Shown one piece after another: positions 35,100-35,170 of a stretch of DNA of 64,000 bases. The position numbers and the translations under genes were made by a program. The notes under the pieces were generated by a model. That model was not told the origin of the DNA and did no database searches. It saw only the letters and a list, made by a program, of their open reading frames with translations. Numbering within the stretch: the stretch's first letter is position 1; every line of letters begins with the position of its first letter. Location of the stretch: positions 6,995-70,994 of the forward strand of contig CAZCYZ010000002.1 of the NCBI GenBank assembly GCA_964503465.1, given 5' to 3'. Source of the stretch: an uncultured Gammaproteobacteria bacterium (lineage in GTDB: Bacteria; Patescibacteriota; Microgenomatia; UBA12405).

Positions 35100-35170
35100 G
35101 TGGGATTGGATATCCCGACGTGAAGTCGGGGCTGATGAGTCCCGCAGTTGCAGGACGAAATCCATTTAGT
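35100..35170 (+). ncRNA. candidate type III hammerhead ribozyme
   Basis: Core CUGAUGA (35132-35138) and GAAA (35157-35160). Stem I UCCCGAC-GUGAA-GUCGGGG. Stem II GUCC..GGAC with AGUU loop. Stem III UGGAU/AUCCA. U16.1-A17 cleavage site at 35111-35112. Confidence 0.55.

What the first reader, a model, noticed from the sequence alone, without database searches (positions are those of the whole stretch)
35100..35170. Candidate type III hammerhead ribozyme inside the island, just upstream of a coiled-coil protein gene
All invariant core nucleotides are present with correct spacing. C3-A9 is CUGAUGA at 35132-35138. G12A13A14A15.1 is GAAA at 35157-35160. U16.1-A17 lies at 35111-35112, so predicted cleavage falls after A35112. 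Stem I is a 7-bp hairpin UCCCGAC/GUCGGGG with loop GUGAA. Stem II is GUCC/GGAC extended by GC/GC with loop AGUU. Stem III UGGAU/AUCCA is open, which makes the topology type III. Two further stable hairpins (34978-35005 and 35052-35075) precede it. Bacterial hammerheads are typically associated with prophage or mobile DNA, which fits the context.
Basis: seen in the sequence. Interest (0 to 1): 0.65.

Follow-up and report, generated by a model that had tools for sequence, protein, structure and literature searches.

The report
Conserved hammerhead ribozyme ending a structured RNA
The candidate is very probably a genuine self-cutting hammerhead RNA, conserved with compensating base changes in seven related loci of tiny uncultured (CPR) bacteria; it is an ordinary ribozyme type, but in six loci it sits at the end of a ~270-base conserved folded RNA that matches no Rfam family.

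Summary
35107-35164 (+) has a complete type III hammerhead core and three helices, with predicted cleavage after A35112. A descriptor scan found only this site in the window, and no equally good site in 300 randomised windows.

Rfam does not call it: 12.3 bits for the window, and 23-26 bits for homologues, against a threshold of 48.5.

Comparative evidence is decisive. The upstream gene encodes a membrane-anchored M23 peptidoglycan hydrolase. Five homologous cassettes in other CPR (Shapirobacteria-like) contigs carry the same ribozyme at the same place, and a seventh copy lies in a different gene context. Two copies were predicted by a model built without them (56 and 60 bits). Across seven copies 95.8% of pair cells are paired, 13 of 22 pairs show compensatory changes, and the core is invariant except for one A9U variant.

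In the six cassettes the ribozyme ends a ~270-nt intergenic RNA that begins within about 5 nt of the hydrolase stop codon. This RNA has four covarying helices (26 of 30 pairs) and two invariant, mutually complementary loops (GUUCC and GGAAC).

The four genes upstream are conserved; the genes downstream are not. The most likely role is self-cleavage of the operon transcript at this module boundary. Cleavage itself is untested.

The parts
28469..37063 (+). Variable island inserted between the TrwB-like gene (26297-28468, minus strand) and rpsB (37064-38011). All its genes are on the + strand and its GC is higher than the surroundings.
   Evidence: In about 15 Shapirobacteria-like relatives trwB and rpsB lie 0.2-2 kb apart. 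GC profile.
33392..34831 (+). Gene for a membrane-anchored peptidoglycan hydrolase of 479 aa: one TM helix, a conserved N-terminal domain and a C-terminal M23 peptidase. It is the last gene of the conserved four-gene module.
   Evidence: Pfam M23. PDB M23 matches. TM helix. Homologues P0003-P0005, P0008 and P0009.
34836..34859 (+). Hairpin A: a 6-7 bp stem starting 5 nt after the stop codon, with a loop beginning with the invariant GUUCC.
   Evidence: All 7 pairs show compensatory changes across 6 loci, and the loop GUUCC is invariant.
34943..34956 (+). Small hairpin CUCG-ACUAAA-CGAG followed by an A-rich linker (tentative). This stretch produced the weak Pistol hit.
   Evidence: A hairpin at the equivalent place in the homologues was seen by eye in alignments A1 and A5. 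Its pairs were not counted.
34976..34998 (+). Hairpin B: an 8 bp stem with the invariant loop AGGGAAC. Its GGAAC is complementary to GUUCC of hairpin A.
   Evidence: 6 of 8 pairs show compensatory changes and the loop is invariant in 6 loci. The loop-loop pairing is inferred, not tested.
35026..35041 (+). 5' strand of the long helix that encloses hairpin D.
   Evidence: Pairs with 35086-35102 in the minimum-energy fold. The six outermost pairs counted (35030-35035 with 35093-35098) all covary across 6 loci.
35053..35074 (+). Hairpin D: a G+C-rich apical hairpin, CCGGUCCC-CUUCAA-GGGACCGG.
   Evidence: 7 of 9 pairs show compensatory changes across 6 loci.
35086..35102 (+). 3' strand of the long helix. 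It ends 4 nt before hammerhead stem III and sequesters a sequence (35093-35107) that could otherwise pair with stem II.
   Evidence: Without the 5' strand of this helix the competing fold wins (P(HH) about 1e-9). With it the hammerhead fold is co-optimal (P about 0.23).
35107..35164 (+). Complete type III hammerhead ribozyme.
35107..35112 (+). Stem III 5' strand UGGAU (16.5-16.1) plus A17. The predicted scissile bond lies between 35112 and 35113.
   Evidence: 5 of the 6 stem III columns covary in 7 loci, and U16.1-A15.1 is invariant. The position of cleavage follows from the established hammerhead mechanism.
35113..35131 (+). Stem I hairpin UCCCGAC-GUGAA-GUCGGGG. The loop ends in AA, as in all 7 copies.
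   Evidence: 100% of cells are paired and 4 pairs show compensatory change. Invariant A20 and A21.
35132..35138 (+). Core C3-A9, CUGAUGA.
   Evidence: Identical in 6 of 7 loci; L029 has CUGAUGU.
35139..35156 (+). Stem II hairpin GUCC(C)GC-AGUU-GC(A)GGAC.
   Evidence: G10.1-C11.1 and U10.2-A11.2 are invariant, and the distal pairs covary.
35157..35164 (+). G12 A13 A14 followed by the stem III 3' strand AUCCA (15.1-15.5).
   Evidence: CGAAA is invariant in 7 loci.
35165..35195 (+). A/U-rich spacer of 31 nt with no predicted promoter or terminator. It leads to the ATG at 35196.
   Evidence: A comparable A/U-rich spacer of 8-31 nt is present in all loci.
35196..36296 (+). Downstream gene: a 366-aa charged soluble protein, the first gene of the non-conserved part.
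   Evidence: No homologue by word-index search. Only weak C-terminal similarity to the L027 neighbour. Downstream genes are unrelated in L028, L029, L047 and L048.

Best explanation
35107-35164 encodes a functional type III hammerhead ribozyme. It is co-transcribed with the upstream four-gene module: a polytopic membrane protein, a lipoprotein, a 5-TM protein and a membrane-anchored M23 peptidoglycan hydrolase.

Once stems I, II and III form, the RNA cuts itself between A35112 and U35113.
- The upstream product carries the hydrolase operon. It ends in a 2',3'-cyclic phosphate just behind a compact ~270-nt folded RNA (hairpins A and B, the long helix and hairpin D).
- The downstream product starts with a 5'-OH and the stem I and II hairpins, about 30 nt before the next start codon.

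The ribozyme therefore uncouples the conserved module from whatever variable genes follow it. It acts as a transcript-processing boundary, doing the job of a 3'-end-forming signal.

Shown: the motif, its conservation and covariation, the accessory RNA, and the conserved/variable gene boundary.
Inferred: co-transcription, cleavage, and the effect on mRNA fate.
For: - Motif: the core and helices are exact and far beyond chance.
- Same element in homologous cassettes: L027, L028 and L029, then L047 and L048. The last two were found at 59.6 and 56.0 bits (E about 1e-15 to 1e-16) by model R2, which was built without them. Model R1 found a seventh copy, in L016.
- Seven-sequence structural alignment: 95.8% of cells paired, against 35-56% when partners are slid. 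13 of 22 pairs show double changes, with 0 of 500 shuffles reaching this. The core is invariant.
- The neighbouring proteins are only 30-50% identical, so the RNA is under its own selection.
- Accessory RNA: 97.1% paired, 26 of 30 pairs compensatory, invariant GUUCC and GGAAC loops.
- No promoter-like or terminator-like site was predicted in 34832-35195.
- The four upstream genes are conserved and the downstream genes are not.
- A more distant hydrolase homologue without the ribozyme (L049) instead has a long hairpin (-38.8 kcal/mol) followed by UUUUCUUUU at the same place.
- Literature: bacterial hammerheads flank genes in polycistronic transcripts and cleave in vitro and in vivo (PMC3088659).
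Against: - No cleavage or transcript data exist.
- Rfam models score below threshold: 12.3 bits for the window, 23.5-26.4 bits for homologues, gathering score 48.5.
- The structural alignments were made by hand and so lean towards the structure. Only 7 and 6 sequences were available, falling into roughly two to three clades.
- In the full-length window RNA the hammerhead fold is predicted 2-3 kcal/mol above the minimum-energy fold, with P about 0.003-0.005. A window-specific alternative helix (35093-35107 with 35138-35151) competes with it.
- No conserved Watson-Crick loop I/loop II contact is evident. Only the AA at the end of loop I is invariant.
- One homologue (L029) has A9U in the core.
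- Co-transcription is assumed from gene order and from the lack of predicted signals.
Confidence: 0.78

Rival explanations
1. The functional product is the ~270-nt structured RNA itself, as a stable non-coding RNA or the RNA part of an RNP. The hammerhead is only the device that gives it an exact 3' end. Effects on the flanking mRNAs would be secondary.
For: - The accessory RNA is at least as conserved as the proteins. It has four covarying helices and two invariant, mutually complementary loops, which is typical of RNAs with tertiary structure or a binding partner.
- It matches no Rfam family.
- It always ends 1-9 nt before stem III.
Against: - No promoter-like site and no 5'-processing motif were found.
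- The RNA starts within about 5 nt of, or overlaps, the hydrolase stop codon in all six loci. This fits a 3'-UTR element better than a separate gene.
- The L016 ribozyme has no such domain, so the hammerhead does not need it.
Confidence: 0.2
2. The composite is a regulated (allosteric) ribozyme. The large upstream domain would sense a ligand, a protein, or the ribosome terminating at the adjacent stop codon, and would switch the hammerhead between active and inactive folds. This would be glmS-like control of downstream expression.
For: - Hairpin A begins within a ribosome footprint of the stop codon in all six loci.
- In the window an alternative helix (35093-35107 with 35138-35151) abolishes the hammerhead fold unless the long helix forms.
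Against: - The alternative helix is not conserved: in L027 and the other homologues P(HH) is little changed (at most about 40-fold lower) by adding 5' context, against about 1e-9 in the window.
- The downstream genes are unrelated between loci, which argues against a dedicated sensor for their function.
- No known aptamer family matches.
Confidence: 0.08
3. The motif is an inactive relic or a chance look-alike, and the conservation reflects another role of these hairpins, for example protein binding or mRNA stabilisation without cleavage.
For: - Scores are below the Rfam threshold.
- L029 carries A9U.
- The hammerhead fold is not the predicted minimum-energy fold in the full-length window RNA.
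Against: - The unpaired core nucleotides (C3-G8, G12-A14), H17 and the A15.1-U16.1 pair are invariant (H17 remains a non-G base) in all 7 copies, and A9 in 6 of 7, while every helix changes sequence by compensatory substitution. This pattern is expected only if the catalytic core is selected.
- Chance is excluded.
Confidence: 0.05
4. The hammerhead belongs to a selfish RNA element, such as a retrozyme-like, viroid-like or circular RNA unit copied into DNA, rather than to the host operon.
For: Type III hammerheads are classic in circular RNA replicons, and the site is a variable island.
Against: - There is only one ribozyme per locus. No second hammerhead of any type was found by descriptor or by the R1 and R2 models in the window or the loci.
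- There are no repeats of the unit and no reverse transcriptase or Rep gene.
- Synteny with the same host gene is fixed in six loci.
Confidence: 0.02

Closest known systems
Bacterial and prophage genomic hammerhead ribozymes (types I-III) lying between genes of polycistronic transcripts (Perreault et al. 2011, PMC3088659; review PMC6155905)
   Same: - Consensus core with three helices.
- Intergenic position, on the same strand as the flanking genes.
- Next to non-conserved genes of unknown function in variable DNA.
- Presumed role in cutting long transcripts into pieces.
   Different: - One ribozyme per locus, not pairs or triplets flanking a gene.
- No integrase or phage genes nearby.
- The host is a CPR (Shapirobacteria-like) bacterium. 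The held literature has no relevant paper linking hammerheads with CPR/Patescibacteria.
- In six loci it is fused to a ~270-nt conserved structured RNA.
- No obvious loop-loop pseudoknot.
Rfam RF00008 Hammerhead_3 (viroid, satellite RNA and other type III hammerheads)
   Same: Same topology (stem III open, stems I and II capped), same core, and similar short capped stems. RF00008 is the best Rfam hit for two homologues, aligned full length.
   Different: - Scores are 23.5-26.4 bits, against a gathering score of 48.5. The window copy scores even lower.
- The cleavage triplet is AUA, GUA or GUU rather than the consensus GUC.
- The 15.2-16.2 pair is U-A in the window.
- Five of the seven copies have a bulge at position 10.3.
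- It is encoded in a bacterial chromosome, not in an RNA replicon.
glmS ribozyme (self-cleavage in a 5' UTR that sets mRNA fate through a 5'-OH end)
   Same: A self-cleaving RNA just upstream of a coding region. Cleavage would leave a 5'-OH on the downstream mRNA, so the logic of controlling mRNA stability could be similar (inference from established knowledge of glmS).
   Different: Different fold and no cofactor evidence. The downstream genes are not conserved, and here the conserved partner is the upstream gene.
Intrinsic (hairpin plus U-tract) terminators and 3'-UTR stabilising hairpins
   Same: - Position immediately after the last gene of a conserved module.
- Stable G+C-rich hairpins would remain at the 3' end of the upstream product.
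- The ribozyme-less relative L049 has a terminator-like hairpin with a U-tract at this place.
   Different: The 3' end would be made by RNA self-cleavage rather than by polymerase release, and transcription would continue into the downstream genes.

Membership tests
Hammerhead ribozyme (class) | Catalytic core nucleotides C3 U4 G5 A6 N7 G8 A9 and G12 A13 A14 | tested here: met
   CUGAUGA at 35132-35138 and GAA at 35157-35159. Invariant in the homologues except A9U in L029.
Hammerhead ribozyme (class) | Cleavage-site context: A15.1-U16.1 pair followed by H17 (not G) | tested here: met
   A35160-U35111 and A35112. The pair is invariant in 7 copies. H17 is A in six and U in one.
Hammerhead ribozyme (class) | Three helices radiating from the core, with pairing directly adjacent to the core and supported by covariation | tested here: met
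   Stems of 7, 4+2 and 5 bp. The 1.1-2.1 pair is U.G in the window and U-A in the other six. 95.8% of cells are paired, 13 of 22 pairs are compensatory, and slid controls give 35-56%. Caveat: the alignment was made by hand.
Hammerhead ribozyme, type III topology | Stem III open; stems I and II closed by loops; order III5'-H17-I-core-II-GAAA-III3' | tested here: met
   RF00008 aligns full length to two homologues.
Hammerhead ribozyme (class) | Tertiary contact between stem I and stem II peripheral elements, needed for fast cleavage at physiological Mg2+ | tested here: inconclusive
   No conserved Watson-Crick complementarity between loops I and II. Loop I always ends in AA. Five of 7 copies have a bulge at 10.3. 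The geometry cannot be judged from sequence.
Hammerhead ribozyme (class) | Site-specific self-cleavage giving 2',3'-cyclic phosphate and 5'-OH ends | not testable with these tools
   Needs an in vitro transcription and cleavage assay, or end-specific RNA-seq.
Rfam RF00008 / RF00163 (operational database criterion, not a biochemical definition) | Covariance-model score at or above the curated gathering score | tested here: not met
   No hit at the gathering score. Window: a partial Hammerhead_1 match of 12.3 bits against 34. Homologues: RF00008 at 26.4 and 23.5 bits against 48.5.
Pistol ribozyme (RF02679), considered for 34942-35001 | Score at or above 34.5 bits; P1-loop pseudoknot; P2 helix; G-U cleavage site after P3; conservation in homologues | tested here: not met
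   19.3 bits, E 0.26, with P2 pairs non-canonical and the GGU deleted in the alignment. No Pistol hit in the homologous regions of L027 and L029. In L027 the P1 loop is only a tetraloop, so no pseudoknot is possible.

The most novel reading that the evidence does not exclude
The hammerhead is the terminal module of an undescribed ~330-nt composite RNA class in CPR bacteria. The other part is a compactly folded domain attached to the stop codon of a cell-wall hydrolase gene. That domain has four covarying helices and a probable GUUCC/GGAAC kissing-loop contact.

In this reading the domain's 3' end is made by ribozyme self-cleavage instead of by a terminator. The composite either caps and stabilises the upstream mRNA or is released as a stable RNA, and so insulates a conserved envelope module from variable downstream cargo. 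This would give a concrete, testable physiological role for a bacterial hammerhead.
Probability: 0.4. Interest if true: 0.65.

Novelty: new member of a known kind. Interest (0 to 1): 0.5.

Why it matters
Hammerheads are the commonest self-cleaving ribozymes, yet what they do in bacteria is still called an open question (PMC6155905).

This case has three useful properties.
- The ribozyme has a fixed partner gene on one side and variable genes on the other.
- It carries a large conserved accessory RNA.
- A ribozyme-less relative has a terminator-like hairpin in the same position.

Together these make a specific hypothesis testable with simple constructs: ribozyme-made 3' ends, or insulation of operon modules.

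It also shows that curated Rfam thresholds miss a whole conserved hammerhead subfamily in CPR genomes. Ribozyme content in these lineages is therefore probably under-annotated.

Tried and rejected
1. Rfam at the gathering score over the window gave only three tRNAs. Permissive scans gave sub-threshold hammerhead hits only.
2. The weak Pistol hit at 34942-35001 was rejected. Its defining features are missing and it was not reproduced in the homologues.
3. The downstream 366-aa protein has no homologue by word-index search, so it could not be used to find related loci.
4. rpsB-anchored loci from 25 species genomes show no syntenic hammerhead by descriptor. They did reveal the island, and later the L016 copy through model R1.
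5. The pattern GAGGGAACC..CTGATGWG..ACGAAA in JGI metagenomes gave 14 hits. All are chance matches in coding or unrelated sequence.
6. IMG/VR gave nothing relevant. The composite pattern gave 0 hits and the hydrolase profile 0 relatives. The subfamily patterns gave 0 hits, and 2 hits unrelated to this family.
7. Phage GenBank records had no DNA or protein match. PHROGs and NCBIfam gave no informative hit for the island proteins.
8. A 15-nt direct repeat at 28355 and 36959 was considered as possible att sites. It was judged chance level by a rough estimate of my own (about 1-2 such matches expected in 8.9 kb).
9. A conserved small ORF through hairpin B to the hammerhead was checked by eye. It is present only in the window and L027 and absent in L028 and L029, so it was rejected.
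10. More distant hydrolase homologues (L049, L050, L051) have no ribozyme. L046 ends before the intergenic region.
11. A VirB6/VirB8-like (type IV secretion) identity for the membrane proteins was considered because of the adjacent TrwB-like ATPase. It was not tested by structure prediction and is not claimed.

Full report
**1. The observation**

- Stem III is UGGAU (35107-35111) with AUCCA (35160-35164).
- U16.1 and A17 are at 35111-35112.
- Stem I is UCCCGAC/GUCGGGG with loop GUGAA (35113-35131).
- The core CUGAUGA is at 35132-35138.
- Stem II is GUCC/GGAC, extended past a C.A mismatch by GC/GC with loop AGUU (35139-35156).
- GAAA is at 35157-35160.

The isolated 63-nt element folds into this structure as its minimum-energy fold, -23.0 kcal/mol. 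A type III descriptor finds no other site on either strand of the window. In 300 Markov-randomised windows it gave one loose hit and none of comparable quality. The motif is real and is not a chance match.

**2.

Rfam does not call it.
- At gathering thresholds the window yields only three tRNAs.
- The most permissive scan of 35095-35175 gives a partial Hammerhead_1 match of 12.3 bits, against a gathering score of 34. One lower-scoring hit from the same clan was suppressed.
- Homologous copies found later are aligned full length by RF00008 at 26.4 bits (L028) and 23.5 bits (L048). The gathering score is 48.5.

By the database criterion the element fails. The biochemical definition is a different matter: the core, H17 and three helices are all present. 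I therefore looked for independent comparative evidence.

**3. Context**

The window is a bacterial chromosome, with rpsB, a short tsf and frr at 37064-39044. The closest rpsB relatives are Candidatus Shapirobacteria/Microgenomates MAGs at 57-65% identity, so this is a CPR/Patescibacteria organism.

In about 15 of those relatives a TrwB-like ATPase gene lies 0.2-2 kb upstream of rpsB. In the window about 8.6 kb (28469-37063) is inserted there, with GC about 0.52 against 0.44. All island genes are on the + strand, in this order:
- five small basic ORFs;
- a protein of 456 aa with about 10 TM helices;
- a 106-aa lipoprotein;
- a 303-aa protein with 5 TM helices;
- a 479-aa protein with one TM helix and a C-terminal M23 peptidase;
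- a 364-nt gap that contains the motif;
- two soluble proteins of 366 and 234 aa.

No phage family, integrase or phage-database match was found. No promoter-like or terminator-like site is predicted in the gap.

**4. Homologous loci**

The 366-aa protein has no detectable homologue. The hydrolase has three by word-index search, and their contigs show the same gene order.
- All three have a 300-385-nt gap after the hydrolase gene.
- All three carry a type III hammerhead at the 3' end of that gap.

A covariance model built from the window and L027 copies (R1) recovered L028 and L029. It also found an unexpected copy in L016, at 27.7 bits and E 1.5e-4. This copy lies between an unrelated secreted protein gene and queA, upstream of rpsB.

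An exhaustive HMMER search with the hydrolase profile found a few more family members. Contigs for P0008 and P0009 (L047 and L048) have the same cassette. Model R2, built from the first five copies only, found hammerheads in their post-hydrolase gaps at 59.6 and 56.0 bits. That is a successful blind prediction.

L048 sits at the same trwB-rpsB chromosomal site as the window. More distant hydrolase relatives (L049, L050, L051) have no ribozyme.

**5. Covariation in the hammerhead**

I built a structure-guided alignment of the seven copies by hand, using N as padding. MAFFT kept it column for column. The counts are:
- 142 informative cells, 95.8% paired. Sliding the 3' partners by 1-3 columns gives 35-56%.
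- 13 of 22 pairs have compensatory double changes, a value reached by 0 of 500 column shuffles.
- In stem III, 5 of 6 columns covary (UGGAU/AUCCA, CUGGU/ACCAG, UAGCGU/ACGCUA).
- In stem I, 100% of cells are paired and 4 pairs covary.
- In stem II the two core-proximal pairs are invariant and the distal pairs covary.

The unpaired core, the A15.1-U16.1 pair and a non-G H17 are invariant, except for A9U in L029. Loop I always ends in AA.

The neighbouring proteins are only about 30-50% identical. Helices drift by compensation while the core is frozen, which is the signature of a selected catalytic hammerhead.

Caveats: there are few sequences in two to three clades, and the alignment was hand-made and leans towards the structure.

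**6. The ribozyme is the end of a larger RNA**

In the six hydrolase cassettes the whole gap is conserved. A hand alignment of four modules gives 97.1% paired cells, with 26 of 30 pairs compensatory and 0 of 500 shuffles reaching this. The modules are:
- **Hairpin A** (window 34836-34859). It starts within about 5 nt of the stop codon, or overlaps it, and its loop begins with the invariant GUUCC.
- **Hairpin B** (34976-34998), with the invariant loop AGGGAAC.
- **A long helix** (35026-35041 with 35086-35102; 13-14 bp in L028 and L029). Its outer pairs are different in every locus.
- **Hairpin D** (35053-35074), a G+C-rich apical hairpin inside the long helix.

GUUCC and GGAAC are complementary, so a kissing-loop contact is plausible. 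It cannot be tested because neither loop varies. No Rfam family matches this RNA. A candidate ORF through it exists only in the window and L027.

The weak Pistol hit at 34942-35001 (19.3 bits) lacks P2, the G-U site and the pseudoknot in L027. It is not reproduced in the homologues, so I reject it. The L016 ribozyme has only two G+C-rich hairpins upstream, so the hammerhead can exist without the accessory domain.

**7. Folding**

With only 12-40 nt of 5' context, the window sequence strongly prefers an alternative helix (35093-35107 with 35138-35151) that destroys stems II and III. P(HH) is then about 1e-9 (also seen). When the 5' strand of the long helix is present it captures 35093-35102, and the hammerhead-containing structure becomes co-optimal at -65.6 kcal/mol, with P about 0.23. 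With the whole RNA it lies 2-3 kcal/mol above the minimum-energy fold.

The competitor is not conserved, since the homologues show at most about a 40-fold drop with added context. I treat it as a mild caveat. It may also hint that the long helix helps the ribozyme fold. I do not treat it as a conserved switch.

**8. Mechanism**

- *Shown:* the motif, its conservation, the accessory RNA, and the gene boundary. The four upstream genes are conserved in all cassettes. The genes after the ribozyme are unrelated between loci, except for weak window-L027 similarity.
- *From established hammerhead chemistry:* cleavage 3' of H17 gives a 2',3'-cyclic phosphate on A35112 and a 5'-OH on U35113.
- *Inferred:* the gap is transcribed with the hydrolase operon, because all genes share a strand and no promoter or terminator is predicted. 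Cleavage then leaves the upstream message ending in a compact, exonuclease-resistant fold. The downstream message would begin with stems I and II, about 30 nt of A/U-rich leader before the AUG.

The ribozyme would thus act as a processing boundary that uncouples a conserved envelope module from variable cargo. In support, the ribozyme-less relative L049 has at this position a long hairpin (-38.8 kcal/mol, z = -6) followed by UUUUCUUUU. The simple terminator scan did not call it, because its loop is long.

This matches the general picture for bacterial hammerheads in polycistronic transcripts (PMC3088659). Their role is still described as an open question (PMC6155905).

**9. Rivals**

- The structured RNA is the real product and the ribozyme only trims it. 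This is plausible, at about 0.2.
- An allosteric or translation-coupled ribozyme. There are weak hints only, about 0.08.
- An inactive relic, about 0.05. The frozen core contradicts this.
- A selfish RNA unit, about 0.02. There is a single ribozyme per locus, no repeats, no RT, and fixed synteny.

**10. Comparison and novelty**

By definition-level features this is a type III hammerhead. The core, H17, topology and covarying helices are met. The tertiary contact is inconclusive and catalysis is untestable here. It fails only the operational Rfam threshold.

It is a new member of a known kind. It differs from described bacterial examples in four ways:
- its CPR host (no relevant paper in the held library);
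- one copy per locus;
- no phage context;
- fusion, in six loci, to a large conserved RNA domain that is not in Rfam.

The family is rare. Only a handful of hydrolase homologues exist among billions of proteins. There were no hits in IMG/VR or in the JGI pattern scans.

**11. Verdict**

Interest is moderate at 0.5. The ribozyme type is ordinary, but the conserved composite architecture and the clean conserved/variable gene boundary give a testable handle on what bacterial hammerheads do. The decisive experiments are in vitro cleavage with core mutants, and end-specific RNA mapping at 35112/35113.

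Noticed in passing
window 34832-35106: A ~270-nt conserved structured RNA upstream of the ribozyme. It has four covarying helices and invariant, complementary loops GUUCC (34843-34847) and GGAAC (34986-34990), which could form a kissing loop. It matches no Rfam family.
   Followed up: yes
window 34942-35001: Weak Pistol ribozyme hit: 19.3 bits against a gathering score of 34.5, E 0.26. It lacks P2 and the G-U site and is not reproduced in homologous loci. 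I judge it spurious.
   Followed up: yes
window 28469-37063: An ~8.6-kb higher-GC insertion between a TrwB/VirD4-like ATPase gene and rpsB. The same site holds different insertions in relatives (L002 about 9 kb, L027 more than 13 kb including an AbiEii gene, L048 about 7.5 kb), so this looks like an insertion hot spot in Shapirobacteria-like genomes.
   Followed up: partly
window 33392-34831 (residues about 190-300): The hydrolase N-terminal domain has an invariant motif S-T-D-W-G-M-C-Q-I-N-D-Y-W plus Y-N-G-S-G-P. From memory this resembles c-type lysozyme or lytic transglycosylase signatures. A distant relative (P0012) has a weak Pfam SLT_3 hit. No PDB sequence match was found for this domain.
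   Followed up: partly
L029 3078-3084: This homologue's core reads CUGAUGU (A9U) and its H17 is U. It may be an attenuated or inactive copy, or an assembly error.
   Followed up: no
L016 8798-8859: A hammerhead of the same subfamily in a different context: after an unrelated secreted 514-aa protein gene and 8 nt before queA, upstream of rpsB. It is preceded by two G+C-rich hairpins and lacks the GAGGGAAC domain.
   Followed up: partly
L049 7465-7528: A distant hydrolase homologue without the ribozyme has a long hairpin (-38.8 kcal/mol) followed by UUUUCUUUU right after the gene. This looks like an intrinsic terminator in the position the ribozyme occupies elsewhere.
   Followed up: partly
window 35093-35107 with 35138-35151: A window-specific alternative helix that would abolish the hammerhead fold unless the long helix (35026-35041 with 35086-35102) forms. 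It is not conserved in L027 or the other copies.
   Followed up: partly
L044 288-339 (IMG/VR UViG_3300020577_003668): An unrelated hammerhead-like core (CUGAUGAGUCC...GGACGAAAUCC) directly after what looks like a tRNA 3' end (GGTTCGATTCC...ACCA) in a 105-kb viral contig. Model R2 scores it at 24 bits.
   Followed up: no
window 1-64000: GC skew is strongly positive across the whole window, 0.16-0.55 in 2-kb bins. G greatly exceeds C on the + strand regardless of gene orientation.
   Followed up: no
window 37064-37366: rpsB carries an N-terminal extension of about 100 aa before the S2 domain, which starts at residue 102. The extension is rich in N, D and K and is shared, at least in part, with the Shapirobacteria-like relatives.
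   Followed up: no
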